Below, one piece after another: positions 1,329 through 60,375 of a DNA stretch of 60,375 nt. Positions within the stretch are counted from its first letter, which is position 1, and each line of letters begins with the position of its first letter. The notes beneath the pieces are model-generated. The model was given only the letters and a program-made list of their open reading frames with translations. It was not told the origin of the DNA and made no database searches. The position numbers and the translations under genes are program-made. The DNA comes from a virus, in IMG/VR virus record IMGVR_UViG_3300046459_000309, positions 1 through 60,375 of that record. The stretch is one strand, 5' to 3'.

Positions 1329-1943
1329 ATGGGGCTCATGGAGAAGGAGAACGCAGTCTGCGCCTGGTGCCCGGAGCCGCTGAAAGCCAGCCGCTCGCAC
1401 CGTGCACGCTTCTGCTCCACCCGCTGCCGCATGGCGTCTCACCGCGCGGCGAAGAACAACCCGCTCCCCGCGGAGCTGACGACCTGCGACAGGTGGGTTC
1501 GACGCTCCTCCACGAAGGTCCCACTGACGATCGGCGACATGCCGGCCAGCAGCACGGACCCGCGGACGTGGAGCAACTACAAGGACGCCTCCGCCTCGTT
1601 GGCCGGCGTCGGTCTGGGCTTCGTGCTCTCTGACGTCGACGACGTGGTCTGTATCGACCTGGACCACTGTCTCAACCCGCTCACCGGGCGACTCGCCCCG
1701 TGGGCAGCAGCCATCGTGCGCGACGCAGGCACCACCTACGTAGAGGTGTCCCCGTCCGGTGATGGACTGCACATCTGGGGCCACGCGGACGTCCGACAGG
1801 GACGCCGCATCCGACGCCCTGACGGTACGGCCGTGGAGCTCTACGGGACCGGCCGGTACATCGCAATGACGGGGCGCCGACATGGCAACGCCCCGTCGAT
1901 CCTTGCGAACATCTCCGCGGTGGTGACCACGCTGACGGCGTAG
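1329..1943 (+). CDS. zinc-ribbon + primase-polymerase (AEP/PrimPol) domain protein
   Basis: CAWCPEP...CSTRC ribbon, then VCIDLDHC and EVSPSGDGLHIWG (DxD and sGxGxH-type AEP motifs); ATG 1338 is an alternative start. Confidence 0.75.
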   Translation: MGLMEKENAVCAWCPEPLKASRSHRARFCSTRCRMASHRAAKNNPLPAELTTCDRWVRRSSTKVPLTIGDMPASSTDPRTWSNYKDASASLAGVGLGFVLSDVDDVVCIDLDHCLNPLTGRLAPWAAAIVRDAGTTYVEVSPSGDGLHIWGHADVRQGRRIRRPDGTAVELYGTGRYIAMTGRRHGNAPSILANISAVVTTLTA

Positions 1944-2117
1944 CTCTCGACATGGGGCGCGCTCACCGACTGGTCCACCACGCTGCCCCGGAGCACGCTG
2001 CGGTAGTCACTAGCGTGATTAGCCACGCCGGAATCTTCTGGATGGTCAAGTGCAGGCCCCCGCAGCGAAGTTCGAGCTGTGGTGGCCGACTGCGATGCTC
2101 TGCTGTTCGGCTCATGA

Positions 2118-2152
2118 ATTCAGTTCAGCACACTTCAATTCAGTTCAGCACC
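2118..2152. repeat. 15-bp direct repeat aattcagttcagcac x2 (2118-2132, 2138-2152) in AT-richer non-coding DNA upstream of terS
   Basis: Read directly; 1944-2353 has no convincing ORF. Confidence 0.85.
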
Positions 2153-2353
2153 CTCAGCGGGGAGCTTAAAAAACTTGCCCTGCCGAGCATCGCAACCCTT
2201 GGGTACGAATTTATGTGAACTTGGCTGGTTGCACGTAAGTAGCTGATCGTCTGAGCAATCAACTGGGCGAACATTTGGTGTTGATACCGACATAACTGCG
2301 CAGGGCCTAGAAGACATAGGCGATCTACGGTGAGTCCGCTGAAGGGAGATTCC

Positions 2354-2815
2354 ATGGCCGGACGAGGCCCCGCCCCAAAAGACCCAACCAAGCGCCGCCG
2401 GCGCAATGCCGCGGACCCCGAAACCGTCATCACCGCTGACGACGAGGTACGGGGCCCCGAACTCCCCGAAGGCGTCCTAGGCGCTGACAAGGACGGTGTC
2501 CTCTACGAGTGGCACCCCATGACCGTCGCGTGGTGGCAGACCTGGCGCGAGTCGCCGCAGGCGTCCACCTTCACGGACACGGACTGGGCTTTCCTCCTGG
2601 ACACGGCACTCATGCACACGTCGATGTGGTCTAAGGGCCAGTGGACGCTTGCCGCCGAAGTCCGCCTCAGAGCAGCCAAGTTCGGCGCTACGCCGGAAGA
2701 CAGGGCCCGCCTGAAGCTCAAGGTCGACGACCCCACGCCAGCCCGTCAGGCGCCCGTACAGGCCCCTCAGAACGTCACTGACATCACTTCACGCAAGGCG
2801 AGGCTGACCGGATAA
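2354..2815 (+). CDS. terminase small subunit
   Basis: ATG 2354 after GGGAGA; N-terminus MAGRGPAPKDPTKRRRRN typical of actinophage small terminases; directly upstream of terL. Confidence 0.8.
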   Translation: MAGRGPAPKDPTKRRRRNAADPETVITADDEVRGPELPEGVLGADKDGVLYEWHPMTVAWWQTWRESPQASTFTDTDWAFLLDTALMHTSMWSKGQWTLAAEVRLRAAKFGATPEDRARLKLKVDDPTPARQAPVQAPQNVTDITSRKARLTG

Positions 2816-2834
2816 CTCCAGAGAGGGGGCGTCG

Positions 2835-4553
2835 ATGCCGCACGTCACGGTACGCGCCCCCGGACACGACCGCTCCCGCTCTCTGGGCTGGCTCGCGGTC
2901 GCATGGATGGAGTATTTCGTCGTCCACGGTCCTGGCGACGTTCAGGGCATGCCGGTCTCCCACGGCGACGAGTACACGGGCTTCGTCGTCGACTGCTACG
3001 CATTGGGAGAGGGCGGTAAAGACGACGGCCGCATGATGTACGACTCCGCGTTCTTCTCTCGCCCGAAGGGCTGCGACAAGTCCGGCCTGGGCGCGCGGCT
3101 TGGTCTCTTCGAGGCTCTCGGACCCTGCCGGTTCTACGGCTGGGCTGAGGGTGGGGAGGTCTACGAGGACCCGTGGGGTCTCGGCTTCCGCTACGTCTAC
3201 GAGGCCGGCGAGCCGATGGGCCGCCCGGTCACCGTGCCGTATCTCCGGATCATGGCCACTGAAGAGGGCCAGACCGGCAACGTCTACGACACGATTTACT
3301 TCAACCTGACCGACGACGCTGCCCGCCTCAGCCACGTTCCGAACGTCGACCCTGGCCTGACGAAAATCAACCTTCCCGACGGCGGAGAAATCACGCCGTC
3401 CACCGCCTCGTCCTCGTCGAAAGACGGCGGCAAGGAAACGTGGGTCTGCTTCGACGAGACTCACCTCTACAACACCCCCGAACTCCGCCGCATGTACGCC
3501 ACAGTGACGCGTAACCTCCGCAAGCGGAAGAAGATCGCGCAGACGTGGTACCTCGAAACGACGACGATGTTCGCCCCGGGGCAAGACTCCGTAGCTGAGC
3601 GGACTTACGAGGAAGCGGAGGCCATCCGCGAGGGTCGTAAGAAGCGCGGTCGCGCGAGGTTGATGTACGACCACCGTTACGGCGTCGTCAAGGACTTGAA
3701 GGACGAGGTCGAACTCCGCGCAGCCCTCCGCGACGCGTACGGCGACGCGATGGAGTGGATCGACGAAGACACGCTCGTCGACGATTTCTACGACCTCCGC
3801 AACGACTCCGCGGACGGCAAGCGCTACTTCCTGAACAGCCGGACGTCCTCCTCCGACGCGTGGATGGACCCGGACGCGTGGGAGCTGTGCCGGCGCGAAG
3901 AGGAGATAGCCGCGGGCGAACTCGTCACCCTGGGCTTCGACGGCTCCATCAACGACGACGCAACCGCCCTTGTGGCCTGCCGCGTATCTGACGGCCACCT
4001 ACAGCTACTCGGCTGCTGGGAGAAGCCGGAAGGCCCCGAAGGCGAAGGCTGGCAGGTCGACCGTGAATCCGTCGACAGCGCCGTTGCTCGCGCGTTCGAC
4101 CGCTACGAGGTCTGCGGCTTCTACTGTGACCCGCCCAAATGGCAGGACTACGTGGACAAGTGGACCGCGGAGCACGGCGAGGGGCTCCAGATCAGCGCCA
4201 CGCAGGCTCGCCCGCTGGAGTGGTGGACGACGCGCCCGACGGCCATGGAGCACGCCTTGGACCGCTTCGTGGAGGCCGTCGACGACAAGGCCCTTTCCTA
4301 CGCCGGCACCGACAAGGCTGACGACGAGGAGCCCTACTCGAAGCTGGGCGCCACGCTCACCCGCCACGTGTTGAACGCGAAGCGCCGCCCGATGGGTCGC
4401 AATCACATCGGTATCGGCAAGGAACACCCCAAGTCGCCGAAGAAGATCGACGCCGCCATGTCCGCCACGCTCGCCTATGAGTGCCGCGCTGACGCCGTCG
4501 CAGCTGGAATCACCAAGCGGAAGAAGCGGACCGGCCGCCTTCGCGCATTCTGA
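2835..4553 (+). CDS. terminase large subunit
   Basis: 572 aa; VCFDETHLY (Walker-B-like) and GFDGSINDDATAL (RNaseH-type nuclease Asp); followed by portal. Confidence 0.93.
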   Translation: MPHVTVRAPGHDRSRSLGWLAVAWMEYFVVHGPGDVQGMPVSHGDEYTGFVVDCYALGEGGKDDGRMMYDSAFFSRPKGCDKSGLGARLGLFEALGPCRFYGWAEGGEVYEDPWGLGFRYVYEAGEPMGRPVTVPYLRIMATEEGQTGNVYDTIYFNLTDDAARLSHVPNVDPGLTKINLPDGGEITPSTASSSSKDGGKETWVCFDETHLYNTPELRRMYATVTRNLRKRKKIAQTWYLETTTMFAPGQDSVAERTYEEAEAIREGRKKRGRARLMYDHRYGVVKDLKDEVELRAALRDAYGDAMEWIDEDTLVDDFYDLRNDSADGKRYFLNSRTSSSDAWMDPDAWELCRREEEIAAGELVTLGFDGSINDDATALVACRVSDGHLQLLGCWEKPEGPEGEGWQVDRESVDSAVARAFDRYEVCGFYCDPPKWQDYVDKWTAEHGEGLQISATQARPLEWWTTRPTAMEHALDRFVEAVDDKALSYAGTDKADDEEPYSKLGATLTRHVLNAKRRPMGRNHIGIGKEHPKSPKKIDAAMSATLAYECRADAVAAGITKRKKRTGRLRAF

Positions 4554-8943: not shown

Positions 8944-9186
8944 ATGGCAACCCTGAAGACGAACGTCCACGTGACGGACTCCGCGGGAGTGAGCCACGTG
9001 TTCGGTCCCGCGGACGAGGTCCCGGAGTGGGCACAGGCGCTCATCACAAATCCGAAGGCGTGGCTGGAGCCGCCCGTCAGTCGACTTACGGAGCCTGCTC
9101 CGGTGCCGGCCGCGAAGAAGGCAGCTCCAGCCAAGCGCGCTCCGGCGCGACGGAAGGCGGGCGGCAGTGCTGTTTCTGACGGCTGA
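8944..9186 (+). CDS. hypothetical protein (Lys/Ala/Pro-rich tail)
   Basis: ORF track; contains palindrome copy 9074-9091 read as VSRLTE. Confidence 0.6.
   Translation: MATLKTNVHVTDSAGVSHVFGPADEVPEWAQALITNPKAWLEPPVSRLTEPAPVPAAKKAAPAKRAPARRKAGGSAVSDG
9074..9091. promoter_or_regulatory. GTCGAC-centred palindrome, copy 1 (ccgtcagtcgacttacgg), inside a CDS
   Basis: Read directly; member of an 11-copy family. Confidence 0.6.
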
Positions 9187-10631: not shown

Positions 10632-10653
10632 CTCCGTGAGTCGACTCGCGGAG
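10632..10653. promoter_or_regulatory. GTCGAC palindrome, copy 2 (ctccgtgagtcgactcgcggag), intergenic before the major tail gene
   Basis: Read directly. Confidence 0.65.
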
Positions 10654-24981: not shown

Positions 24982-25013
24982 CGTGCCACATCCTCTCTCC
25001 AGCACCCCATAAC
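24982..25013 (+). promoter_or_regulatory. bipartite promoter-like motif, copy A (cgtgccacat-N8-cagcaccccataac)
   Basis: Read directly; ends 37 nt before ATG 25051. Confidence 0.55.
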
Positions 25014-26015: not shown

Positions 26016-26037
26016 GTCCGTGAGTCGACTTGCGGAC
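26016..26037. promoter_or_regulatory. GTCGAC palindrome, copy 3 (gtccgtgagtcgacttgcggac)
   Basis: Read directly; 14 nt upstream of the TTGTGT -35-like hexamer. Confidence 0.65.
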
Positions 26038-27540: not shown

Positions 27541-27588
27541 TCGTCGCCTGACGTCAGCCGGCGTCCTCCTCCGCCCCGGTCAGACTCT

Positions 27589-27693
27589 GGCCAAAAGGAC
27601 GAACTAGACCCCTATTTCTAACCTCTCCTTAAGAGCCTTGGGAAGAAGTTAGAAATAGGGGTCTAGTTTGTCATTCTGTCGCCAGACTGTCCG
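27589..27693. repeat. ~105-bp AT-rich hairpin element, copy 1 (20-24 bp stem 27603-27622 / 27648-27667)
   Basis: actagacccctatttctaac ... gttagaaataggggtctagt; flanks shared with 58701-58803. Confidence 0.85.
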
Positions 27694-27724
27694 CCGGGAC
27701 GAGGCGGGAAAATCTTGAAAGTCC

Positions 27725-27756
27725 CGTGCCACATCCTCTCTCCAGCACCCCATAAC
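27725..27756 (+). promoter_or_regulatory. bipartite promoter-like motif, copy B
   Basis: cgtgccacat-cctctctc-cagcaccccataac; ends 41 nt before ATG 27798. Confidence 0.55.
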
Positions 27757-30863: not shown

Positions 30864-30883
30864 CTCCGCAAGTCGACTCACGC
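30864..30883. promoter_or_regulatory. GTCGAC palindrome, copy 4 (ctccgcaagtcgactcacgc), starts right after the TAG stop
   Basis: tagctccgcaagtcgactcacg is identical to the 22-mer at 48113-48134. Confidence 0.65.
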
Positions 30884-35667: not shown

Positions 35668-36184
35668 GCGATGCGGAACCGGATCGACCCTCGAAGAGCT
35701 GGAGGAGGCATACGAGCGTGCCCGCCAGGCCCGGATCGACCGCTACTACCAAGGCGAGAGCGCCAGCGACATGGCGGAACGCATCGTCGACCTGGAGGAC
35801 GAGCTAGGTGCTGACGTCGACGGCATCAGTACCGGAATGCATGCCGACGTGGCGGAGGCTCAGTGCGAGATCGAGCGCCTGGAGCGCGCCCTCCGTCTCT
35901 CGGAAGCCAAGATCGGTGGGGCCGCGCTCTACGTGGGCCAAGCGAACGCCAGGTCCAACATGCTGGAGAACGCCCTGACGGTGTACGAGGGCATCGCGGA
36001 TGAGCGAGACCGCTACCGCCTTGCCTGGCTCTCTGCCCGCCGGCGTGCCGCGGATGAGGCCAACTTCGGTATGGAGGCATTGGAGCTGCGGGACGCGGAG
36101 ATCGCACGCCTGAAGGCGGAGCTGGACAACCTCCGCAAGTCGACTCACGGAGCCCCGGAGCTGGAGCACGTCTGCACCGACTAG
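35660..36184 (+). CDS. hypothetical coiled-coil protein
   Basis: ORF track; carries palindrome copy 5 near its 3' end. Confidence 0.65.
   Translation: MSERCGTGSTLEELEEAYERARQARIDRYYQGESASDMAERIVDLEDELGADVDGISTGMHADVAEAQCEIERLERALRLSEAKIGGAALYVGQANARSNMLENALTVYEGIADERDRYRLAWLSARRRAADEANFGMEALELRDAEIARLKAELDNLRKSTHGAPELEHVCTD
36131..36152. promoter_or_regulatory. GTCGAC palindrome, copy 5 (ctccgcaagtcgactcacggag), in the 3' end of a CDS
   Basis: Read directly; translated LRKSTHGA. Confidence 0.6.
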
Positions 36185-36223: not shown

Positions 36224-36255
36224 CGTGCCACATCTGACCGCCAGCACCCCATAAC
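36224..36255 (+). promoter_or_regulatory. bipartite promoter-like motif, copy C
   Basis: cgtgccacat-ctgaccgc-cagcaccccataac; ends 63 nt before ATG 36319. Confidence 0.55.
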
Positions 36256-41967: not shown

Positions 41968-41986
41968 CCCGCAAATCGACTCACGC
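41968..41986. promoter_or_regulatory. palindrome family, copy 6, variant core AATCGAC (cccgcaaatcgactcacgc)
   Basis: Starts right after the TAG stop; followed by a terminator. Confidence 0.55.
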
Positions 41987-42060: not shown

Positions 42061-44547
42061 GTGCGACTGACCGACATCCTGGATCGATTCGGCAGGGTCG
42101 AACAAGATCATGATGGCTGGCTGGCTCTGTGCCCCGCGCACAACGACCAGACGCACCCCTCACTCAAGCTGACGCTGAAGTCTGACGGCATGCTGCTCAT
42201 GGTCTGCCGGACCGGCTGCGCGAAGGCGGACATCCTGAAGGCTGCCAACCTGACGGCCGCGGATCTCTTCAACGTCGACGGCCAGGGCGTGAAGACGATC
42301 AGCGCGAAGGCGCCGGAATCCATTGGCCCGGGGGAGATCGCCGGACTCCGCATGTTCGTCGACGAGGCGTCGGCCGCACTGGCTGGCACCCCGGAGGCGG
42401 TGGCGTACCTGGCCGACCGCTTCGGCCTCACGGTGGAGCAGGCGGAAGACCTGGACGTCGGATACGCGGCGCCCGGAGACCGCTCGCAGCCCTGGCTGAC
42501 GCGCGGCTTCACCCGGTACCCGCGGCTGACTGTCCCGCTCATCGGCTTCGACGGTGTGGTTCGCGGCCTTCAGGGGCGGGACCTGTCCGGCAAGTGCCCC
42601 GCACGTTGGGTGTCGCTGGCAAACGTCGACGGCAAGACGTGGGCCAAGTACGGCCAGCTCTCCGCCGGCACGGGCTACGACACGATCCTTGTGACCGAAG
42701 GCCCGGGGGACGGACTGACTTCCGTCGGTGTCGGCTATGACGCGCTGATCATCCGTGGCGCCGGTCTGGCCCGGAACGCCGGCCTCGTCGCCGAACTCGT
42801 GGAGCAGCTCCGCGGCCGTGACGTTGTGCTGGCCTTCGACCCTGACGACGCAGGAGCGCGCGGTATCGGCGCCCTGGCAACGGCGCTCGTGGCCGACGGC
42901 AATCACCCGAGGCAGCTCCCGTTCCCCAACGCCAAGGAGGACCTGACCGACTGGCGGGAGAGGACGCCAGCGACGTTCCCCGCGGAGCTTCACACCGCCG
43001 TTCGCTCCGCCCCTGTGGTGGACCTGGAGCAGCCCAAGACACCCGCACCCACACCGCCGAAGGAGGCTGACATGCCCGCCACTGACGCCGCACTGGACAC
43101 CATGTCGGAGTCCGCGCGCAGCCTCTTCGACAACACCGACGTCGGCATTGCCGTCATGCTCCGCGACTTCATCACCGCCAACGGCGGGGGAGTCCGGTAC
43201 GCCAAGGGGCTCGGCTACCTCTGCTGGGACGGCAAGGTGTGGGCGCCGGGCGGCGACAAGGTCCGCGAGTACCTCCATCTGATGGGCGCCGAACTGATCG
43301 CTTCGGCCGACGACTCGAAGCGCCGGCTGGCACTGAAGGCGCTGTCGAACCGAAGCATCGACGCCGTGATGAAGGAGCTGCCGAGTGCGCCGGGAGTGCC
43401 CGCGCAAGCCGCGGACTTCGACGCGAATCACGAGCTGCTGAGCGTGGAGAACGGGACGGTCAACCTGCGGACTGGCAAGCTTCAGCCACACGCCCCGTCG
43501 GACATGATCACCAAGCGCCTCGATGTCGCTTACCACCCGGACGCACCTGCGGAGCGTTGGAACCAGTTCCTGACGGAGGTGTTCCCCGGACACCCCGATC
43601 TCCCTGGATTCATGAAGCGGCTCGTCGGCTACGGATGCACCGGGAGCACGTCGGAGCACTGCTTCGCCTTCCTCCACGGGCAGGGGAGCAACGGAAAGTC
43701 GGTGTTCCTTGACGCGCTTATCCACGTGTTCAAGGGCGTCACGCAAGCGACGCAGTTCAGCACCTTCGAGAAGTCCGTGAACGTCGGCCAGGCAAGTCCC
43801 GAACTGGCGTCCCTCCGTGGGGCGCGGCTCGTGACGGCGTCGGAAACGGAGAAGTACAGCCGCCTGGCTGAGGCGCTCGTGAAGCAGCTGACGGGAGGCG
43901 ACCCGATCACGTGCCGCTTCCTGAACCAGAACCCGTTCACCTACGTGCCGTCGTTCCTCCTTCTTGTGGCCGGCAACTTCAAGCCCGCGATCCTGTCGCA
44001 GGACGAGGGGACCTGGCGTCGGGTCAAGCTGATCCCCTTCGACGCCACGTTCTCCTACGCCCGTGGCAACAAGGACACAACCCTCCCCGCCAAGCTGCGC
44101 GAGGAGGCGGAGGGCATCCTCGCTTGGTCCGTCGCCGGCGCCGTGGAGTGGTACGCGAACGGACTTGGTGAGCCGACGTCCGTCGCCACCGCCACGCAGG
44201 ACTACCGGGAGTCGGAGGACCGCCTTCAGGAATGGCTGAACGCATGCCTCGTCAAAGAGGAAGGCGCGCGGGTTGCCCCCATGGCTGCCCGACGTGCCTA
44301 CGCGGAGTGGGCAGAGGATGCCGGACTTGACCGCAAGGAGCGGCTGTCTGGTTGGGCTTTGGCCGTCGAACTTGAGAGCCGCGGGTTCAAGAAAGCTAAG
44401 AAGCGGGGCGCTTGGGGCTTTGACGGACTGCGCCTCATGACGGACCAAGAGAAGCAGACCGCGAGTCGACTCGCGGAGGCCGTTGACGAGCCCGCCGGCC
44501 ATGCCGGTCCAACCGATGTGTTTGGCCAGCCCAAAAAGGAGGCGTGA
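42061..44547 (+). CDS. bifunctional DNA primase / SF3 helicase (Toprim + P4/D5-type)
   Basis: GTG after GGAAGGAGAG; LALCPAHNDQTHPS...CRTGC, Toprim ILVTEGPGDGL and VLAFDPDDAG, Walker A GQGSNGKS. Confidence 0.9.
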   Translation: MRLTDILDRFGRVEQDHDGWLALCPAHNDQTHPSLKLTLKSDGMLLMVCRTGCAKADILKAANLTAADLFNVDGQGVKTISAKAPESIGPGEIAGLRMFVDEASAALAGTPEAVAYLADRFGLTVEQAEDLDVGYAAPGDRSQPWLTRGFTRYPRLTVPLIGFDGVVRGLQGRDLSGKCPARWVSLANVDGKTWAKYGQLSAGTGYDTILVTEGPGDGLTSVGVGYDALIIRGAGLARNAGLVAELVEQLRGRDVVLAFDPDDAGARGIGALATALVADGNHPRQLPFPNAKEDLTDWRERTPATFPAELHTAVRSAPVVDLEQPKTPAPTPPKEADMPATDAALDTMSESARSLFDNTDVGIAVMLRDFITANGGGVRYAKGLGYLCWDGKVWAPGGDKVREYLHLMGAELIASADDSKRRLALKALSNRSIDAVMKELPSAPGVPAQAADFDANHELLSVENGTVNLRTGKLQPHAPSDMITKRLDVAYHPDAPAERWNQFLTEVFPGHPDLPGFMKRLVGYGCTGSTSEHCFAFLHGQGSNGKSVFLDALIHVFKGVTQATQFSTFEKSVNVGQASPELASLRGARLVTASETEKYSRLAEALVKQLTGGDPITCRFLNQNPFTYVPSFLLLVAGNFKPAILSQDEGTWRRVKLIPFDATFSYARGNKDTTLPAKLREEAEGILAWSVAGAVEWYANGLGEPTSVATATQDYRESEDRLQEWLNACLVKEEGARVAPMAARRAYAEWAEDAGLDRKERLSGWALAVELESRGFKKAKKRGAWGFDGLRLMTDQEKQTASRLAEAVDEPAGHAGPTDVFGQPKKEA
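44459..44476. promoter_or_regulatory. GTCGAC palindrome, copy 7 (ccgcgagtcgactcgcgg, perfect 18 bp), inside the primase-helicase CDS
   Basis: Read directly; translated TASRLAEA. Confidence 0.55.
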
Positions 44548-45044: not shown

Positions 45045-46891
45045 GGTACTTCCCGTACACCATTGCCGGCGACGAGACCATGACGCGCGTCCCAGAAACA
45101 GCCGCCGACCTAGACGAGTTCCGTCGGTGGGTGACTCGCAAGGTGCAGTCGGGTGAGGTGGTTGGGGCGGATTCAGAAACAACGGGCTTGGACACCTTCA
45201 GCCCGGCGTATCGCCTCCGCACAGTGCAGCTGGGCGACGCACGGGACGCGTTCGTGCTCCAGGTGGAGGACCGCCCGCTGATGCAGGAGGCAGCCCGTTG
45301 GGCGCTCCTGACGCTCCCACGGCTTGTGTTCCACAACGCCACCTTCGACCTGCTGGTCCTGGACCGACACCTTGGCACCCCGCTGGAGGTGCTGGGGCCG
45401 AAGGCGACCGATTCCAAGATCGTGGCCCATCTGTACGACTCGCGCCCGTCCCACGAAGGCGGGTATGGCCTGCGGCTGAAGGAGCTGTGTGCGAAGGACG
45501 TCGACCCGTCGGCGCCGGACACGCAGGAAGACCTGACGAAGGTGTTCCACTCCATCGGTGAGACGAAGGCCAGTGGGTGGGCCGCGATCGACATCAACCA
45601 CCCGACATACTTGGCGTACGCCGGCTTGGACGCGATCCTCGTCTCCCGACTCCTGCCGGTCCTGGAGGAGCGTCTCCGCTCCGTCGGTGTGGCACAGCGT
45701 CTCGTCGACTTCGAGCACCGCGTGATGCTCGTTTGCGCCAAGATGGAGCGGCGCGGGATGCTCGTGGACCAGCCGTACGTGGCCGACCTCGTGGGCCGGC
45801 TGGAGGAGGAGGCCAAGCTCCACGCGGGCAAGGCGACGAAGTACGGCGTGACGTCGGTGAACTCCCCGAAGCAGGTGGCGACGGCTCTTGTCGGCATGGG
45901 GGAGACGCTAACGGAGACCACTGACAGTGGGGCTCTGAAGGTGGACAAGTCCATCCTGCTGGACCTGGCCGACCTGGACGAGCAGTGGCAGCCGCGCGGG
46001 GCTCGCAAGGCAAACCCGCTGGCTGACGCCGTGCTCCGCAGCAAGCGGGCGGGCAAGTGGTCGACGTCGTACGGCATCGCCATGCGCGACGGTGTGGACT
46101 CTGACGGGCGTCTGCACCCGAAGATCAACAGTCTCCAGGCGCGGACGGCACGGATGTCCATCTCCAACCCGCCGTTGCAGCAACTGCCGTCGGGGGACTG
46201 GACGATCCGGCGCGCACTCCTGGCCGACCCGGGGATGCGCATGTTCAGCGTGGACTACAGCGCCGTGGAGATGCGCGTCCTGGCTGCCCTGGCCAACGAG
46301 ACCACCATGAAGCGCGCGATCACAGAGGGGAGGGACCTGCACGACTTCACCGCGGAACTCATCTGGGGCCCGAACTTCACCAAGCGACACCGCAAGATGG
46401 GCAAGGGCGTGGGCTTCGGCAAGGTCTACGGGGGAGGCGCAACGACCCTCAGCAGGCAGACCGGCGCACCCCTGGCTGAGGTGAAGACCGCCATTGCCGC
46501 GTACGACCGGGTGTACCCCGGAGTCAAGCGCTACTCGCAGAAGCTTCAGCGCGAGGCACGCAGGGACGGCTACATCGTCTGGACTCCCGTCGGCCGGCGG
46601 CTCCCGCTGGACCGGGACCGTGTGTACGCGGCGACCAACTACGCGGTGCAGTCGACCGCGCGGGACGTGCTGTGCCAGGCGGTGTTGGACATGGACGACA
46701 AGGGCCTGACGGACTACCTGCTTCTGCTCATCCACGACGAGGCGTTGGGCTGCGCTCCCGCGGAGGACGTGGCGGAGATCGCGAAGGAGGTGGGCGATGC
46801 CATGCGTATGGACTTCTTCGGTGTCCCTCTCGACACCGACCCCGACGTCGGTGGCCGATCCTGGGGAAGCCTGTATGGCGCCGACTACTGA
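45041..46891 (+). CDS. DNA polymerase I (family A) with 3'-5' exonuclease domain
   Basis: Frame of ORF 44951..46891, ATG 45041 (ATGA overlap); GADSETTGL; VDYSAVEMRVLA (motif A); KGVGFGKVYGGG (motif B); LIHDEAL (motif C). Confidence 0.92.
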   Translation: MRYFPYTIAGDETMTRVPETAADLDEFRRWVTRKVQSGEVVGADSETTGLDTFSPAYRLRTVQLGDARDAFVLQVEDRPLMQEAARWALLTLPRLVFHNATFDLLVLDRHLGTPLEVLGPKATDSKIVAHLYDSRPSHEGGYGLRLKELCAKDVDPSAPDTQEDLTKVFHSIGETKASGWAAIDINHPTYLAYAGLDAILVSRLLPVLEERLRSVGVAQRLVDFEHRVMLVCAKMERRGMLVDQPYVADLVGRLEEEAKLHAGKATKYGVTSVNSPKQVATALVGMGETLTETTDSGALKVDKSILLDLADLDEQWQPRGARKANPLADAVLRSKRAGKWSTSYGIAMRDGVDSDGRLHPKINSLQARTARMSISNPPLQQLPSGDWTIRRALLADPGMRMFSVDYSAVEMRVLAALANETTMKRAITEGRDLHDFTAELIWGPNFTKRHRKMGKGVGFGKVYGGGATTLSRQTGAPLAEVKTAIAAYDRVYPGVKRYSQKLQREARRDGYIVWTPVGRRLPLDRDRVYAATNYAVQSTARDVLCQAVLDMDDKGLTDYLLLLIHDEALGCAPAEDVAEIAKEVGDAMRMDFFGVPLDTDPDVGGRSWGSLYGADY

Positions 46892-47312
46892 GCGGCTGGG
46901 GCCCGCGCGGCTGCCCGCGCCATCGGTGCGTCGGGTGACCGGAGTTGACCGGACGGCAGTGGCTGGATTCGTCCCCGCTGCCGTCCGTCCGACATCCCGC
47001 CTGCGTCCCATATCGCCCCCTATGCGTGCAGCTGAGCCACCCCACGGACCATCACACCGTGACACTCTGCGACGGTGGGAGGAGCTGGAGTGGTGGGCCT
47101 GTGTCTACTGTGACTCCTCGTTCGGCCCAATGGTTGTAGCGGAAGTGGACCACGCAATTCCCCTTGCGAAGGGGGGTGTTCACGAGGAGTTCAATCTCGT
47201 GCCGGCGTGCGCCGAGTGCAACAGGGCCAAGTCTGATCTGGACATGTCCGACTGGTTGTCAGTTCTTGCAGCTCAGCCGGATACGGAGCGCGAAGTTACG
47301 GTTACGCGCTGA
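46875..47312 (+). CDS. HNH endonuclease (start uncertain: 46875, 46926 or 47022)
   Basis: Frame of ORF 46797..47312; CVYCDSS...VDHAIPLAKGGVHEEFNLVPACAECNRAK. Confidence 0.75.
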   Translation: MAPTTERLGPARLPAPSVRRVTGVDRTAVAGFVPAAVRPTSRLRPISPPMRAAEPPHGPSHRDTLRRWEELEWWACVYCDSSFGPMVVAEVDHAIPLAKGGVHEEFNLVPACAECNRAKSDLDMSDWLSVLAAQPDTEREVTVTR

Positions 47313-47396
47313 TGTTCTGACGTGTGATCAACACGCGCACACGTTCTCCACATGTCACAGATCGGTAACACGTTTCATCGTTCCAGTAACTTCGGA

Positions 47397-47437
47397 CGGC
47401 CGACATAACCGCAGGTCGGGCCACTCGGCCGACATAA
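47397..47437. repeat. cggccgacataa x2 (47397-47408, 47426-47437) in a 226-bp repeat-rich non-coding region
   Basis: Same 11-mer core occurs in the promoters at 50646-50656 and 52256-52266; ggtaacac x2 at 47364 and 47489. Confidence 0.8.
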
Positions 47438-47538
47438 GTACGACTAACCCTGTGTGCTCACAGGTAGGGCAAATGGGCGCATACCGCCGGTAACACCCCT
47501 CGCATACCAGCCGCTTGACGATTGCCCGGGGAGGGCCC

Positions 47539-47997
47539 GTGACCTACAGTCCAACTCACGTCGCAGACGGACAGCATCTGACGGATCTTCTGGACACGCT
47601 CCAGCGTGACCTGATCGAACTCCGTCAGATGGCGTCGATCTACGAAGACGCAGTAGCCATGCCGGGCCGACGGCCCGCTGTGGATCCGGATGGGACCGGA
47701 CGTGCCGGAACGCACGACCCCTCTCGCCCGACGGAGAACACCGCCCTGGACAGCGCTCGTGGAGCGCTACAGAAGCAATTGGAAATTGGCATCTCGTATA
47801 CCACATACGCAGTCGCGTACGTGCGAGGTGTTACCGCATCAATGGACCGAGCCCTCAGTCACTGGGAGGGGGAGGACGTCCACGTTCCGGGGGAATGCAA
47901 TGAACGTACTGACGGGGCCGCGCTCAACGTCGAAGCAGGCGGCCAGCCTTCAGAGCCTGTCGGAATCGATGGGTCTCCCGCTCCTGCACAACTCTGA
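47539..47997 (+). CDS. hypothetical protein, first gene of the sigma-factor operon
   Basis: Frame of ORF 47515..47997; GTG 47539 after GGGGAGGG; its last ~100 nt have poor GC3. Confidence 0.6.
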   Translation: MTYSPTHVADGQHLTDLLDTLQRDLIELRQMASIYEDAVAMPGRRPAVDPDGTGRAGTHDPSRPTENTALDSARGALQKQLEIGISYTTYAVAYVRGVTASMDRALSHWEGEDVHVPGECNERTDGAALNVEAGGQPSEPVGIDGSPAPAQL

Positions 47998-48115
47998 AGA
48001 CGATCTCATCGACGCAGAGACCCTCTACCGAGCAGCCGGCTGGGATTCCTGCCCGCTCGCTCTCGCCGACGTTGACATTGCCGACGCCTACGGACTCCTG
48101 ATCAAGGACGTCTAG
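47900..48115 (+). CDS. hypothetical protein (71 aa) overlapping the 3' end of the upstream ORF
   Basis: Frame of ORF 47690..48115 from ATG 47900 (GGGGGA upstream); high GC3 through the overlap. Confidence 0.6.
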   Translation: MNVLTGPRSTSKQAASLQSLSESMGLPLLHNSEDDLIDAETLYRAAGWDSCPLALADVDIADAYGLLIKDV

Positions 48116-48137
48116 CTCCGCAAGTCGACTCACGGAA
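48116..48137. promoter_or_regulatory. GTCGAC palindrome, copy 8 (ctccgcaagtcgactcacggaa), right after the TAG stop
   Basis: Read directly. Confidence 0.65.
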
Positions 48138-48161
48138 CCCCGCAGCTGTCAGCCTGCGGGG
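48138..48161 (+). terminator. GC hairpin ccccgcag-ctgtcagc-ctgcgggg (no U-tract)
   Basis: Read directly. Confidence 0.5.
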
Positions 48162-48251
48162 CTCGCACGCCCAACACAAGCATCACGCCAGGGGCTGGGC
48201 GACGTGCGCCCTGATGCACCGCATCGTGTGTGACGCGGGTCACAAAAGTCC

Positions 48252-48283
48252 CGTGCCACATTCCGCGCCCAGCACCCCATAAC
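48252..48283 (+). promoter_or_regulatory. bipartite promoter-like motif, copy D, in front of the sigma-factor gene
   Basis: cgtgccacat-tccgcgcc-cagcaccccataac; ends 32 nt before ATG 48316. Confidence 0.55.
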
Positions 48284-48315
48284 CAATTCACACGAAGCAC
48301 TCACGAGGAGAAGCC

Positions 48316-49098
48316 ATGTCGATGCCGGTCACCGTGACAGACGCTCAAATTCTTTCCGCGCAGGGTGGGGACGAGATGGCGATGTGGGATGTTATCTCCG
48401 CCTTCGAACCCATGATGCGCACTATCATCCGGAGCGCCGCCCCTGCCGCGGACGCCGACAAGGCGGAAGATCTGCTTCAGGAAGCACGCATCGCGCTGCT
48501 GCAGCACATTCGCGAGTACTCCACGGAAGGCACGGCAGCCGCTCTCTCCTCGTTCGCATATCGCGGGATCCACCGCGCCGTTGCGGAGGAGTGGATTCGG
48601 ATGTCCAGCCCCTTCAAGGTCGACCCGACCTCGGTCATCAGGGTCCGTCGCGCACTTTGGGAGGCGAGCGGCGACGTCGAAGAAGCCTGGTTGATCGTAT
48701 CGGCCGACGCACAGGCGAAGCGACAGATGTCGCGTGAAGTCTTTGTGAGTATTCGTGAAGCACTCATGGACGTCAGCAGCCTGGAGGCCCCCCTCGCCTC
48801 CAGCGAAACCGGCGTCACACTGGGCGACACCATCCCTGACGAGACGTCCGGCTTCACCGACTCCACCGAGCGTCGCGACCTTGCTCGCTGGCTGCTGACG
48901 CAGATTCCGCAGCGTCAGGCGTACGCGCTGCGCGCCTTCTACGGCATCAACGCCCTGAAGCAGACGGACGAGCAGACAAGCGACGAGCTGGGGCTCAGTG
49001 CAGCCAAGAACTGCGCCGCACTCCGAACAACCCGCCGCAACGGCGTCCGCAGCGCCCGCAACGTCGCAGCCGGCAACCACATCACGCTCGCTGCGTGA
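48316..49098 (+). CDS. sigma-70 family RNA polymerase sigma factor (phage-encoded)
   Basis: Region 2-like DLLQEARIALLQHIREY...FAYRGIHRAVAEEW; region 4 HTH IPQRQAYALRAFYGI...TSDELGLSAAK; 260 aa. Confidence 0.8.
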   Translation: MSMPVTVTDAQILSAQGGDEMAMWDVISAFEPMMRTIIRSAAPAADADKAEDLLQEARIALLQHIREYSTEGTAAALSSFAYRGIHRAVAEEWIRMSSPFKVDPTSVIRVRRALWEASGDVEEAWLIVSADAQAKRQMSREVFVSIREALMDVSSLEAPLASSETGVTLGDTIPDETSGFTDSTERRDLARWLLTQIPQRQAYALRAFYGINALKQTDEQTSDELGLSAAKNCAALRTTRRNGVRSARNVAAGNHITLAA

Positions 49099-49133
49099 GT
49101 CATTCGCCCACCTATCCCGAATGGACAACGACC

Positions 49134-49271
49134 ATGAACTTCCCCTCTCTCGATGACTACGACGTCCAGGGCGTGCGACCGGAGGAGGCCGCCCTCTGGG
49201 GCGGTGACGTCCTACTGGCCGTGGAAGCCCGCAGCGACGACGAACCGCTCGACGGCTACATCTTCGAGTGA
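49134..49271 (+). CDS. hypothetical acidic protein (45 aa, not in ORF track)
   Basis: MNFPSLDDYDVQGVRPEEAALWGGDVLLAVEARSDDEPLDGYIFE; good GC3. Confidence 0.4.
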   Translation: MNFPSLDDYDVQGVRPEEAALWGGDVLLAVEARSDDEPLDGYIFE

Positions 49272-49272
49272 C

Positions 49273-49294
49273 CTCCGTGAGTCGACTCACGGAG
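49273..49294. promoter_or_regulatory. GTCGAC palindrome, copy 9, perfect 22 bp (ctccgtgagtcgactcacggag)
   Basis: Read directly; 1 nt after the TGA stop and 26 nt before ATG 49321. Confidence 0.7.
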
Positions 49295-49320
49295 TCCGTA
49301 AGACCTGCAGAGGAGAGAGC

Positions 49321-50106
49321 ATGACGGAATACAAGATCACGTGTCAGGACACCCCTGCCGACTCGATCCAAGCGGTAGGTGGGTCCCCCTTCACGGATGG
49401 CCTTGTCGCCTTCTACACGGGCGGCTGTGACAGCGTCTACGCCACTCCGGACGACGCCCGCACCTTCGCCCGCGACATCCTGGCCCTGGCCGACGAGGTC
49501 GACGGGGGAGAGGTGCCGGAGGCCGCCGCAACCGTCAAGGTCGGCGACGTCGTCCGCGTCGTGAAGGACGACCTCCACATCCGCACGGGGGAGTTCGTTG
49601 GTGCGGTCGGCACAGTGCATCTCATCCACGGCGGGGGGTCGACCCTTCCCTACCGACTCGCCTTCGACGACGACCAAGACGTCCCGTACCCGACCTGGAA
49701 CGTCGCGGAGGTGGAGCCGGCAACCGAGCCCACCCCTGATGAGCCCCTGGCCGACTGGGAGCGGGAACTCCTGGCCGACAAGCCCACCCTCGTGACCGTC
49801 AAGGTAGGCGACAGCGTCAACATCCTTCGTCCGGAGAGCGTCCTCCCGGAGTACCGGGGAGTCGTCGGCGTGCTGACCCGCATCGACGACACGGAGTGCA
49901 AGTACCGCGTCCAGGTTGGCACTCAGGAGGACGACAACATCGTTTGGGCTTACGAGGTGGAGCCCGCAGCGTCGACCGTCGCCGCAACCCCCGTCCCGTC
50001 CCGCGCGCTGCGGCTGGGTCAGGCTTCCACCATGATGGGCGACCAGCCGTACAGCGCCTACGACTTGATCGCACTGGCCGACTACCTGGCAGGAGACAAC
50101 GCATGA
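49321..50106 (+). CDS. repeat protein with KVGD (SH3/KOW-like) modules
   Basis: Frame of ORF 49153..50106; ATG 49321 after AGGAGAGAGC; VKVGDVVRVVKDD and VKVGDSVNILRPE; C-terminus DLIALADYLAGDNA. Confidence 0.7.
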   Translation: MTEYKITCQDTPADSIQAVGGSPFTDGLVAFYTGGCDSVYATPDDARTFARDILALADEVDGGEVPEAAATVKVGDVVRVVKDDLHIRTGEFVGAVGTVHLIHGGGSTLPYRLAFDDDQDVPYPTWNVAEVEPATEPTPDEPLADWERELLADKPTLVTVKVGDSVNILRPESVLPEYRGVVGVLTRIDDTECKYRVQVGTQEDDNIVWAYEVEPAASTVAATPVPSRALRLGQASTMMGDQPYSAYDLIALADYLAGDNA

Positions 50107-50596: not shown

Positions 50597-50632
50597 GGGG
50601 GAGTTCCGCAAGTCGACTCACGGAACTCCCCC
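50597..50632. promoter_or_regulatory. GTCGAC palindrome, copy 10, embedded in a 36-bp palindrome (gggggagttccg-caagtcgactca-cggaactccccc)
   Basis: Read directly; core 50604-50625. Confidence 0.7.
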
Positions 50633-52069: not shown

Positions 52070-52278
52070 CGTTCGAAAGCGGCTGTTCCGCGGTCGTCGA
52101 CGACGTCGCACAGCGCCACTTCCTCCGCCAAGCGGTCGGCCGCGGATACGGGCGGACGAGGGTGCGCGGTGGATGGGTCATCACGCTGCCGGGGGAGACG
52201 CTCGTCGCGATGCTCCGTGAGTCGACTTACGGAGGTTCGGCGCTAGGTGTTGTGTCGGCCGACATAACTGTGTCATAG
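52054..52278 (+). CDS. hypothetical protein whose 3' end runs through palindrome copy 11 and the next promoter
   Basis: ORF track; C-terminus LRESTYGGSALGVVSADITVS is encoded by regulatory repeats. Confidence 0.5.
   Translation: MRYRVTFESGCSAVVDDVAQRHFLRQAVGRGYGRTRVRGGWVITLPGETLVAMLRESTYGGSALGVVSADITVS
52213..52234. promoter_or_regulatory. GTCGAC palindrome, copy 11 (ctccgtgagtcgacttacggag)
   Basis: Read directly; 15 nt upstream of TTGTGT. Confidence 0.65.
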
Positions 52279-58639: not shown

Positions 58640-58700
58640 TACAGTGAGTGCTGATGGCGGGTCAATTTGTAGCGCTGCGTAGCTGCTTGCGTACCAGATT

Positions 58701-58803
58701 GGCCAAATGGACGAACTAGACCCCTATTTTCAAACCTTCCTTAACGCGTTAAGAGAGAAGTGAAAATAGGGGTTAGTTTGGCATTCTGTCGCCAGACTGT
58801 CCG
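58701..58803. repeat. ~105-bp AT-rich hairpin element, copy 2
   Basis: ggccaaatggacgaactagacccctattttca ... tgaaaataggggttagtttggcattctgtcgccagactgtccg; arm changes relative to copy 1 are compensatory. Confidence 0.85.
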
Positions 58804-58831
58804 GGGGTGGAGACGGCTCATGATCATCCCC

Positions 58832-58852
58832 ATGCCACATGCACCCCATAAC
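58832..58852 (+). promoter_or_regulatory. remnant of the bipartite promoter-like motif (atgccacat fused to gcaccccataac, spacer deleted)
   Basis: Read directly; lies upstream of the tRNA region. Confidence 0.35.
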
Positions 58853-60238: not shown

Positions 60239-60375
60239 TCACGGCCCGACGCGCCTGAACGTCAGCATGACGCGATCACCCGACGGATGCGGCTCGCTGT
60301 ACTCCAGCTTCCACCCCGCCATCTCGACGCGAGTGACGAGCCTTTCCGACTTGTGGACGCCGCCAATCGCCACGC
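60239..60375 (-). CDS. 3' end (with stop) of the junction-spanning minus-strand gene; 60249-60375 duplicates 1-127
   Basis: Minus strand reads ...MLTFRRVGP-TGA, stop at 60241-60239. Confidence 0.6.
   Translation of the reverse strand, partial: VAIGGVHKSERLVTRVEMAGWKLEYSEPHPSGDRVMLTFRRVGP

What the first reader, a model, noticed from the sequence alone, without database searches (positions are those of the whole stretch)
47539..49098. Phage-encoded sigma-70-family factor preceded by its own copy of a genome-wide promoter-like motif
ORF 48316-49098 has recognisable sigma regions 2 and 4. It is 260 aa, larger than a minimal ECF sigma. It is preceded at 48252-48283 by cgtgccacat-N8-cagcaccccataac, the same motif that fronts three other operons. 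Two small overlapping genes (47539, 47900) and a palindrome plus hairpin lie just upstream. This suggests a phage-specific transcription programme with possible positive autoregulation. The small upstream proteins could be partner or anti-sigma candidates.
Basis: partly seen in the sequence, partly recalled or inferred. Interest (0 to 1): 0.7.

Follow-up and report, generated by a model that had tools for sequence, protein, structure and literature searches.

The report
Phage sigma factor with own promoters
A Streptomyces phage carries its own three-domain sigma factor, and the same 32-base promoter-like motif sits in front of that gene and three early operons; in 20 related phages the motif has changed together with the matching sigma domains, which makes this a well-supported but not unprecedented phage transcription switch.

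Summary
CGTGCCACAT-N8-CAGCACCCCATAAC occurs exactly four times, always on the + strand and between genes. The copies lie before the dNMP kinase, exonuclease, recombination-directionality-factor and sigma genes; none is expected by chance.

ORF 48316-49098 is a sigma-70-family protein with domains 2, 3 and 4, so it is not an ECF sigma. The window is a complete 60,248-bp relative of Streptomyces phage Samy and, more distantly, phiC31.

All 22 related genomes for which both loci were recovered have their own variant of the motif at three or more syntenic places. Across 21 genomes the upstream box co-varies with sigma domain 4. The downstream box co-varies with domains 2 and 3. This holds even for the copy 20 kb from the sigma gene. 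Published Samy RNA-seq shows the sigma gene silent in lysogens.

The best reading is that the phage sigma directs host core RNA polymerase to these promoters, its own included, giving positive feedback. No start-site or biochemical data exist.

The anti-sigma idea for the two upstream genes has no support. They form a separate, terminated unit that is expressed in lysogens.

Side findings:
- a CRP-consensus site found only at the sigma promoter
- phiC31-like operator palindromes
- a copy of the motif that is 10 nt shorter

This is a new member of a known kind.

The parts
48316..49098 (+). Sigma-70-family gene (260 aa) with domains sigma2, sigma3 and sigma4
   Evidence: Pfam Sigma70_r2 scores 26.5 against a cut-off of 24. 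PHROG 351 and 15865 are sigma families. The family profile aligns to RpoD, SigA and RpoS across regions 2-4. The AF2 model has pLDDT 85.9. Foldseek finds full-length sigma matches. At least 120 homologue clusters exist in Streptomyces genomes and prophages.
48252..48283 (+). Promoter-like motif, sigma-gene copy: upstream (-35-like) box 48252-48261 and downstream (extended -10-like) box 48270-48283
   Evidence: It is one of 4 perfect copies. The family-wide core is (C)ACAT-N16-CA(Y)AAC, aligned without gaps in 23 genomes. The boxes co-vary with sigma4 and with sigma2/3 respectively.
24982..25013 (+). Promoter-like motif copy before the dNMP kinase gene (25051)
   Evidence: syntenic copy in relatives
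27725..27756 (+). Promoter-like motif copy before the exonuclease operon (27798), just downstream of the repressor-like gene
   Evidence: a copy 30-44 nt before the exonuclease start in all 20 relatives tested
36224..36255 (+). Promoter-like motif copy before the Gp3-like RDF gene (36319)
   Evidence: syntenic copy in relatives
48229..48244 (.). Perfect CRP-consensus palindrome TGTGA-N6-TCACA, present only at the sigma-gene copy of the promoter
   Evidence: It is the only perfect site in the window. All 24 genomes have it with at most 2 mismatches. Its centre lies 47 +/- 1 nt upstream of the end of the downstream box; in one genome the distance is 58.
48135..48164 (+). G+C-rich hairpin (11-nt arms, 8-nt loop); likely terminator of the DUF7169 unit
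   Evidence: Relatives have a hairpin followed by TTTCGT at the same place. Samy counts drop from 36-123 (SAMYPH_66) and 12-30 (SAMYPH_67, the gene next to the hairpin) to 0-2 (sigma) across it.
48117..48136 (.). One of about 11 copies of an 18-bp palindrome CCG(Y)(R)AGTCGACT(Y)(R)CGG; operator-like, analogous to the phiC31 inverted repeats
   Evidence: Equivalent multi-copy palindromes occur in Samy and phiC31.
47539..47997 (+). DUF7169 gene (152 aa): two long helices joined by a conserved loop; function unknown
   Evidence: Pfam DUF7169 scores 70 bits. It is conserved next to the sigma gene in 25 relatives. AF2 gives pLDDT 78. Foldseek finds no PDB fold match.
47900..48115 (+). Small gene (71 aa) overlapping the DUF7169 3' end; function unknown
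   Evidence: tblastn finds it in 21 relatives at 30-68% identity. It has no family match.
49134..49271 (+). Acidic 45-aa gene just downstream of the sigma gene, more conserved than sigma itself
   Evidence: It is 54-84% identical in 25 relatives. It shows no co-variation with the promoter (r -0.02).
58829..58852 (+). Collapsed fifth copy, CCCATGCCACAT|GCACCCCATAAC: both boxes present but exactly 10 nt closer together
   Evidence: Samy and IMG/VR 2514752031_000001 have the same architecture, each with its own box variants.
2271..2296 (+). Core-only match GAACAT-N16-CATAAC, ending 33 nt before the terminase small-subunit gene (2330); candidate late promoter
   Evidence: The core regex finds 5 hits in the window against 0.16 expected. 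The gene is assigned by Pfam Terminase_7. Not tested in relatives.

Best explanation
The 260-aa protein is a three-domain sigma-70-family factor made by the phage. It replaces the host sigma on host core RNA polymerase.

Its domain 4 reads the upstream box (CGTGCCACAT, -35-like). Its domains 2 and 3 read the downstream box (CAGCACCCCATAAC, an extended -10 ending in CATAAC). The core elements are 16 nt apart.

Four such promoters start the non-structural, early lytic operons: dNMP kinase, the exonuclease/recombination block, the RDF-primase-polymerase block, and the sigma operon itself. Once some sigma is made it would amplify its own synthesis and switch on DNA metabolism together.

In the lysogen these promoters are off, and a hairpin insulates the sigma gene from the weakly expressed DUF7169 unit upstream.

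Shown here:
- the motif copies and their placement
- the sigma fold
- the conserved regulon in relatives
- the domain-specific co-variation
- silence of the Samy homologue in lysogens

Inferred:
- that the motif is a promoter
- that this sigma reads it
- that feedback occurs

More speculative: the first sigma molecules may be made by host RNA polymerase helped by a CRP-type activator bound at the conserved TGTGA-N6-TCACA site, which only the sigma copy has.
For: - Four perfect copies, co-oriented with the genes and intergenic, each 32-63 nt before the first gene of a block.
- Sigma identity and domain architecture.
- In all 22 related IMG/VR genomes with both loci, the motif before the sigma gene recurs at syntenic places. 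In most of them these are before the kinase-like gene, 30-44 nt before the exonuclease gene, and before the RDF-like gene. Each genome has its own box variants, and these change in concert in all copies.
- Box spacing is constant, with a gap-free alignment.
- Mantel tests on 21 genomes: promoter distance tracks sigma distance (r 0.73). It stays at 0.51-0.66 (p = 0.0005) after controlling for repressor, exonuclease, DUF7169, HNH or RDF. Those proteins fall to 0.02-0.25 after controlling for sigma.
- Domain specificity: the upstream box tracks sigma4 (r 0.66; partial 0.61, p = 0.0005) and not sigma2. The downstream box tracks sigma2 (0.56) and sigma3 (0.73); the sigma2 partial controlling for sigma4 is 0.49, p = 0.0005. 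It does not track sigma4.
- The same pattern appears with the exonuclease-gene copy, 20 kb from the sigma gene.
- The last base of the -10-like hexamer is C, not T, in nearly all genomes. The sigma-70 consensus scan finds nothing in this region.
- Samy RNA-seq in non-inducing cultures gives sigma 0-2 reads against 36-123 for the DUF7169 homologue (SAMYPH_66) and 12-30 for SAMYPH_67, the two genes just upstream. Sigma, kinase, exonuclease and RDF are not among the lysogen-expressed genes (PMC11302927 S1 Data and S3 Table).
- phiC31 shows the same logic. A sigma2/3 homologue (gp12) sits behind one of about 10 copies of a conserved motif that precedes the early genes.
Against: - There is no transcription start-site, binding or genetic evidence for this phage or, in what I could read, for any relative.
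- Mantel tests do not remove shared ancestry or linkage.
- With all 21 genomes and the exonuclease-copy boxes, DUF7169 correlates as well as sigma (0.73 against 0.70) and keeps a partial of 0.47. That signal disappears only when the three most divergent genomes are removed.
- Pfam and NCBIfam do not detect regions 3 or 4 at their cut-offs.
- If the sigma is needed at its own promoter, something else must start the loop.
- The conserved collapsed copy, with boxes 10 nt closer, cannot be contacted by sigma2 and sigma4 together in a normal holoenzyme.
Confidence: 0.7

Rival explanations
1. The motif is a promoter read by a host holoenzyme (HrdB or a host alternative sigma), possibly with a phage activator. 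The phage sigma would serve other promoters, for example the late ones.
For: - The geometry is that of the sigma-70 family: a 16-17-nt spacer, GCCACA and CATAAC each matching 3-4 of 6 consensus positions.
- This reading avoids the bootstrapping problem.
- A core-like site lies before the terminase gene.
- In Samy the gene after the collapsed copy is expressed in lysogens in 7 of 10 conditions.
Against: - The -7 position is systematically C, and the consensus scan finds no sigma-70-type site.
- The boxes differ between phages of the same host genus, whereas host sigmas are conserved.
- The boxes co-vary with the phage sigma, domain by domain.
- The first genes behind the four Samy copies are not expressed in lysogens.
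Confidence: 0.15
2. The two boxes are binding sites for another phage DNA-binding protein, such as the repressor, DUF7169 or an unidentified activator, and not for the sigma.
For: - Raw Mantel correlations are high for DUF7169 (0.64-0.73) and the repressor (0.61-0.63).
- A two-domain or dimeric binder could tolerate the 10-nt-shorter copy, because both boxes stay on the same face of the helix.
Against: - These correlations fall to 0.02-0.25 after controlling for sigma, or after removing three divergent genomes. The sigma correlation persists.
- The boxes are asymmetric, not palindromic.
- The genome has a separate palindrome family that fits a repressor operator.
- DUF7169 has no DNA-binding fold match.
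Confidence: 0.1
3. The repeats are non-functional copies spread by recombination, or are RNA-level elements such as processing or antitermination sites.
For: Identity among copies extends somewhat beyond the boxes between copies 1 and 2 (83% over 71 nt).
Against: - Only the two boxes are invariant; the N8 spacer and the flanks vary.
- Positions are syntenic and the boxes evolve in concert across 22 genomes.
- The motif contains no inverted repeat, and there is no Rfam match.
Confidence: 0.03

Closest known systems
Streptomyces phage phiC31 early-gene system: gp12 plus the multi-copy early-promoter motif and the conserved inverted repeats bound by the repressor
   Same: - The gene order is shared: kinase, repressor, exonuclease, RDF, primase, polymerase, sigma-like gene.
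- gp12 has Sigma70_r2 and aligns to this family over sigma2-3 (hhalign probability 89%).
- A conserved motif precedes the kinase, exonuclease, RDF and gp12 genes.
- A separate multi-copy palindrome fills the intergenic regions.
- From memory, not checked here: Ingham et al. 1993 mapped these phiC31 early promoters and found them activated during lytic growth, and Wilson et al. 1995 showed that the repressor binds the inverted repeats.
   Different: - The phiC31 motif is one contiguous block of about 20 nt (CCGGGTTGCCGACTYCCTTAC) present in about 10 copies. Here the motif is bipartite and present in 4 copies.
- gp12 is 396 aa, and its C-terminal half does not align with sigma4 of this family.
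- DUF7169 was not found in phiC31.
- I found no accessible report that links gp12 to the early promoters experimentally.
[quoted passage not shown]
   Same: - It is the closest sequenced phage: sigma 46% identical, with the same HNH-DUF7169-small-sigma-small cassette.
- The same four promoter positions and the same collapsed fifth copy are present.
   Different: - The box sequences differ: GCGTCACAT / GGATTACGACAYAAC.
- The Samy paper annotates the sigma but does not mention promoters or a motif; both terms have 0 occurrences in its text.
Classical phage-encoded sigma factors (Bacillus phage SPO1 gp28 and gp33/34, T4 gp55); from general knowledge
   Same: A phage sigma redirects host core RNA polymerase to phage-specific promoters and creates a temporal class of genes.
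   Different: - Those factors are short or highly divergent and are made from host-type early promoters.
- Here the factor keeps all three domains.
- Here the motif precedes the sigma gene itself, which implies autoregulation in a temperate phage.
Group 3 bacterial sigma factors (SigB/SigF/FliA type)
   Same: The size (260 aa) and the sigma2-sigma3-sigma4 architecture are shared. The best structural matches include SigB and SigS.
   Different: It scores far below every NCBIfam subfamily cut-off. No anti-sigma or anti-anti-sigma partner genes were recognised nearby.

Membership tests
Sigma-70 family | Region 2 (sigma2: core binding and -10 recognition) | tested here: met
   Pfam PF04542 scores 26.5 bits against a gathering score of 24, residues 29-91. 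The profile aligns to RpoD region 2.
Sigma-70 family | Region 4 (sigma4 helix-turn-helix: -35 recognition) | tested here: met
   Pfam r4 gives no hit. The family profile does align through RpoD region 4.2, query up to residue 246. The AF2 model has C-terminal helices 183-253. Foldseek alignments of 245-274 columns cover whole sigma chains.
Sigma-70 family | Binds core RNA polymerase and confers promoter-specific initiation | not testable with these tools
   Only indirect support exists: domain-specific co-variation with the promoter boxes.
ECF (group 4) sigma factors | Only sigma2 and sigma4, joined by a short linker; no sigma3 | tested here: not met
   About 80 residues (101-182), with helices 104-150, lie between the two domains and align to RpoD region 3. 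TIGR02937 scores 33.8, below its cut-off of 42.9.
phiC31-type early transcription system | gp12-like sigma gene downstream of the DNA polymerase gene | tested here: met
   Synteny is shared. The N-terminal 180 residues are homologous. The C-terminal halves are not alignable.
phiC31-type early transcription system | One conserved motif in front of several early operons, including the sigma gene | tested here: met
   The window has 4 copies. phiC31 has about 10 copies, at gp52, gp1, gp3 and gp12 among others.
phiC31-type early transcription system | The phiC31 motif sequence itself (GGGTTGCCGACTYCCTTAC) | tested here: not met
   The window motif has a different sequence and is bipartite.
Anti-sigma factor (for gp47539 and gp47900) | Anti-sigma domain or a known anti-sigma family, usually co-transcribed with the sigma gene | tested here: not met
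   Pfam, PHROG, NCBIfam and PADLOC give no anti-sigma hit. The DUF7169 model has no PDB fold match. A hairpin and the sigma promoter separate the two units. In Samy these genes are expressed while the sigma gene is silent.
Anti-sigma factor (for gp47539 and gp47900) | Physical binding to the sigma | not testable with these tools
   This needs a pull-down or two-hybrid experiment.
CRP/FNR-type operator (site 48229-48244) | Match to TGTGA-N6-TCACA | tested here: met
   The window site is perfect. All 24 genomes have at most 2 mismatches at a fixed distance. The consensus is as given in PMC10187061.
CRP/FNR-type operator (site 48229-48244) | Bound by a CRP-family protein | not testable with these tools
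   The same review notes that DNA binding by S. coelicolor Crp has not been confirmed in vitro.

The most novel reading that the evidence does not exclude
The Samy-like prophages may form a natural series of mutually orthogonal sigma/promoter pairs. Each phage would have re-tuned both boxes and the matching sigma domains, perhaps to avoid cross-activation by co-resident relatives.

The lytic switch would be an autocatalytic sigma loop. It would be ignited by a host CRP-type regulator at the one invariant element, TGTGA-N6-TCACA, upstream of the sigma promoter. That would tie prophage induction to host metabolic state.

The conserved copy that is 10 nt shorter would act as a non-productive sigma-binding site or as a differently wired promoter for the tRNA region.
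Probability: 0.2. Interest if true: 0.7.

Novelty: new member of a known kind. Interest (0 to 1): 0.5.

Why it matters
- It gives a concrete, testable model for how a large group of Streptomyces prophages turns on early lytic genes. The sigma family has at least 120 clusters at 90% identity.
- It offers a candidate identity for the factor behind the long-known 'novel' early promoters of phiC31-type phages.
- The co-evolving sigma/promoter variants would be ready-made orthogonal expression parts for Streptomyces engineering.
- The CRP-type site suggests a route by which host physiology could control induction.
- None of this overturns current ideas. Phage-encoded sigmas are a classical mechanism, and the gene is already annotated as a sigma factor in Samy and phiC31.

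Tried and rejected
- Megablast of the region against 50,697 phage records found no match. The phage is new at the DNA level, and only tblastn and blastn found Samy and phiC31-like relatives.
- Pfam, NCBIfam and PADLOC gave nothing for the 71-aa, 45-aa and 261-aa proteins.
- Rfam found nothing in 46800-49400 at E <= 1.
- The sigma-70 promoter and intrinsic-terminator scan of 47200-49400 found 0 sites of either kind.
- Foldseek of the DUF7169 model against the PDB gave no meaningful match. I considered a Gre/DksA-like coiled-coil that binds the RNA polymerase secondary channel, because of the two long helices and the acidic loop. I found no evidence for it.
- An integrase-anchored search for more copies of the collapsed motif found no relatives. 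A pattern search on the flanking module found one further case.
- Five literature searches for phiC31 early promoters, gp12 or Streptomyces phage sigma factors found no accessible paper. Smith et al. 1999 is not held. Statements about Ingham 1993 and Wilson 1995 therefore rest on memory.
- My first palindrome pattern was mis-specified with N5 and missed the site. It was corrected to N4.
- I rejected the ECF sigma reading and the idea that the 18-bp palindrome is part of the promoter. The palindromes lie 70-120 nt upstream, or elsewhere, and occur at about 11 sites.
Full report
WHAT THE WINDOW IS

The first and last 127 bases are identical. The window is therefore a circularly assembled genome of 60,248 bp, with 65.5% G+C.

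It has no near-identical relative among 50,697 phage records. Its sigma protein is 46% identical to that of Streptomyces phage Samy. The primase-polymerase region matches Samy at 71% and phiC31-like phages at about 65%.

The gene order follows Samy and phiC31:
- structural genes
- dNMP kinase
- SprT-like gene
- repressor-like gene
- exonuclease
- many small genes
- Gp3-like RDF
- primase, HNH and polymerase
- HNH, DUF7169, small gene, sigma
- integrase and tRNAs

THE OBSERVATION

The 32-nt pattern has four perfect copies at 24982, 27725, 36224 and 48252. All are on the + strand, and none was found in shuffled sequence. Only the 10-nt and 14-nt boxes and a few flanking bases are invariant. The N8 spacer and the flanks vary. 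Each copy lies in a gap between genes and ends 32-63 nt before a start codon.

The ORF at 48316-49098 passes the Pfam Sigma70_r2 threshold and matches four PHROG sigma families. Pfam does not see region 3 or region 4. A profile of 42 homologues aligns to RpoD from region 2 to region 4.2 (E 2.6e-9). The AlphaFold model (pLDDT 85.9) aligns full-length to SigB, SigS and SigA. The protein is therefore a three-domain sigma and not an ECF factor.

The two upstream genes, the palindrome and the hairpin are all present as described.

COMPARATIVE EVIDENCE

The sigma family has at least 120 clusters. Every named member is from Streptomyces, and most are in prophage-sized or chromosomal contigs.

I fetched 26 sigma-anchored loci and 80 exonuclease-anchored loci from IMG/VR and paired them by contig. 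All 22 genomes analysed show the following:
- The bipartite motif before the sigma gene recurs at further syntenic places. In most genomes these are three: before the kinase-like gene, before the exonuclease gene, and before the RDF-like gene. A few genomes have an extra copy or a shifted position.
- In the 20 relatives tested, the copy before the exonuclease gene ends 30-44 nt from its start.
- Each genome has its own variant of both boxes.
- The copies within a genome match at 21-24 of 24 box positions.

Examples of box pairs:

| Genome | Upstream box | Downstream box |
|---|---|---|
| L013 | CGTGAGACAT | CCCCCACATAAC |
| L021 | GGTACTGGAT | TTTCCCCCATAAC |
| L029 | CGCCTAACGC | GTGCCCCATCAC |
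| L030 | CGGAACAT | GACTGCACCACAAC |
| Samy | GCGTCACAT | GATTACGACAYAAC |

The alignment needs no gaps. The family-wide core is (C)ACAT-N16-CA(Y)AAC. This is sigma-70-family geometry, but the last base of the -10-like hexamer is C instead of the T that principal sigmas need. The consensus scan finds no host-type promoter in the region.

CO-VARIATION

The test used 21 genomes. All p-values are from permutation.

Promoter-box distance against protein distance, sigma-gene copy:

| Protein | Mantel r |
|---|---|
| Sigma | 0.73 |
| DUF7169 | 0.64 |
| Repressor | 0.61 |
| HNH | 0.52 |
| Exonuclease | 0.47 |
| RDF | 0.41 |
| 71-aa protein | 0.32 |
| Kinase | 0.23 |
| 45-aa protein | -0.02 |
| Polymerase | -0.06 |

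Controlling for any one of the other proteins tested (repressor, exonuclease, DUF7169, HNH, RDF) leaves the sigma correlation at 0.51-0.66 (p = 0.0005). Controlling for sigma brings those proteins down to 0.02-0.25.

The signal is domain-specific:

| Box | Sigma domain | r | Partial r |
|---|---|---|---|
| Upstream | sigma4 | 0.66 | 0.61 (p = 0.0005) |
| Upstream | sigma2 | 0.33 | 0.12 (n.s.) |
| Downstream | sigma2 | 0.56 | 0.49 (p = 0.0005) |
| Downstream | sigma3 | 0.73 | not computed |
| Downstream | sigma4 | 0.35 | 0.18 (n.s.) |

To avoid linkage with the adjacent gene, I repeated the test with the exonuclease-gene copy, 20 kb from the sigma gene. The pattern is the same: the upstream box against sigma4 gives a partial of 0.64, and the downstream box against sigma2+3 gives 0.62.

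One caveat applies. With all 21 genomes and this copy, DUF7169 correlates as well as sigma (0.73 against 0.70). After removing the three most divergent genomes, sigma stays at 0.64, every other protein is at or below 0.40, and DUF7169 controlled for sigma is 0.02. These tests do not remove shared ancestry. The result is strong circumstantial evidence, not proof.

EXPRESSION DATA FROM THE CLOSEST RELATIVE

The Samy paper's supplements give raw counts for the first seven columns of its S1 Data sheet, which are non-inducing MP5 cultures:

| Samy gene | Raw counts |
|---|---|
| Sigma (SAMYPH_68) | 0, 0, 0, 2, 0, 2, 1 |
| Next gene (SAMYPH_69) | 0 in all seven |
| DUF7169 homologue (SAMYPH_66) | 36-123 |
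| SAMYPH_67 | 12-30 |
| Repressor | 737-3353 |

In the paper's S3 Table, sigma, kinase, exonuclease and RDF are not among the genes expressed in lysogens. The DUF7169 homologue is listed in 4 of 10 conditions.

Two conclusions follow. The hairpin between the units insulates the sigma gene. The motif-bearing promoters behave as lytic-specific.

MECHANISM PROPOSED

The phage sigma binds host core RNA polymerase. It reads the upstream box with sigma4 and the extended downstream box with sigma2/3. It drives four operons that cover most of the non-structural genes from 25 kb to beyond 50 kb, its own operon included. This gives positive feedback.

The open step is ignition. Only the sigma copy carries, at a fixed distance, a palindrome that matches the CRP consensus TGTGA-N6-TCACA. 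It is perfect in the window. All 24 genomes have it with at most 2 mismatches, although the neighbouring promoter boxes vary. In one genome it is displaced by 11 bp, about one helical turn.

A conserved binder is implied. Host Crp is a candidate, because its DNA-binding signature matches CAP (PMC10187061). This is a hypothesis only.

THE UPSTREAM GENES

DUF7169 and the 71-aa gene are conserved next to the sigma gene in 25 and 21 relatives respectively. I did not find DUF7169 in phiC31.

They have their own conserved upstream region, RBS and GTG start, and they end at the hairpin. The DUF7169 model is a hairpin of two long helices with an invariant loop (DGTGR...SRPTE). It has no PDB match.

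Nothing identifies either protein as an anti-sigma, and binding could not be tested.

COMPARISON WITH KNOWN SYSTEMS

phiC31 has the same logic. About 10 copies of a contiguous motif precede early genes, including gp12. gp12 has Sigma70_r2 and aligns to this family over sigma2-3 only. A separate palindrome family is also present.

From memory, these are the early promoters of Ingham et al. 1993 and the repressor-bound inverted repeats of Wilson et al. 1995. I could not retrieve those papers.

Both gp12 and SAMYPH_68 are already annotated as sigma factors. The Samy paper does not discuss promoters or motifs.

What this analysis adds is the four-promoter regulon, its conservation, and the domain-specific co-variation. 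I therefore file it as a new member of a known kind.

UNEXPLAINED

A fifth copy lies at 58829-58852 with both boxes exactly 10 nt closer together. Samy and one further genome have the same architecture at the same place, each with its own box variants. A module of about 150 nt precedes this copy. The same module also precedes the exonuclease promoter. Such spacing does not fit normal sigma2/sigma4 contacts.

Noticed in passing
window 9074-9091, 10634-10651, 26018-26035, 30866-30883, 36133-36150, 41969-41986, 44459-44476, 48118-48135, 49275-49292, 50606-50623, 52215-52232: About 11 copies of an 18-bp palindrome, CCG(Y)(R)AGTCGACT(Y)(R)CGG, mostly at gene ends or in gaps. Samy has its own version (CGCGTAAAACGACTCACGCG) and phiC31 has CCTACTCACGTGAGTAGG. 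They are probably repressor operators.
   Followed up: partly
window 48229-48244: A perfect CRP-consensus palindrome, TGTGA-N6-TCACA, lies only upstream of the sigma-gene promoter copy. All 24 genomes have it at a fixed distance with at most 2 mismatches; in one genome it is shifted by 11 bp.
   Followed up: partly
window 58829-58852; Samy OR263580 58774-58797; L129: A collapsed copy of the promoter motif has its two boxes exactly 10 nt closer together. It lies between the integrase gene and the tRNA cluster. It is conserved in three genomes, each with its own box variants.
   Followed up: partly
window 27575-27700 and 58690-58825: A module of about 150 nt with a 19-nt-arm inverted repeat (CTAGACCCCTATTTCTAAC ... 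GTTAGAAATAGGGGTCTAG) occurs twice. One copy lies before the exonuclease promoter and one before the collapsed copy. Samy has it too, and phiC31 has a 120-nt repeat at the equivalent places.
   Followed up: partly
window 47395-47440, 2283-2296, 52255-52268: The half-site CGACATAA(C/G) recurs. Relatives have a perfect palindrome, TTATGTCGGCCGACATAA, plus a second copy upstream of the DUF7169 gene. The site at 52240-52275 resembles a four-copy Samy family that has host-like TTGTGT / CATAGT hexamers.
   Followed up: partly
window 2271-2296: GAACAT-N16-CATAAC, the core of the promoter family, ends 33 nt before the terminase small-subunit gene. It lies in an A+T-richer gap that also holds the direct repeat ATTCAGTTCAGCAC twice (2119-2152). 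It is a possible late promoter or cos region.
   Followed up: no
window 49134-49271: An acidic 45-aa ORF lies right after the sigma gene. It is 54-84% identical in 25 relatives, which is more conserved than the sigma, and it does not co-vary with the promoters. It may act on a conserved host target.
   Followed up: no
window 1-127 and 60249-60375: The two ends are identical. The window is a circular assembly of a complete 60,248-bp phage genome.
   Followed up: yes
L120, L122, L125, L128 (IMG/VR relatives): In some relatives the second copy of the 150-nt module is followed by an inverted pair of DnaA-box-like sequences, TTATCCACAGG...CCTGTGGA(T/C), instead of the collapsed promoter copy.
   Followed up: no
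window 48284-48315: The 5' leader of the sigma gene, CAATTCACACGAAGCACTCACGAGGAGAAGCC, is nearly identical in several relatives whose promoter boxes differ.
   Followed up: no
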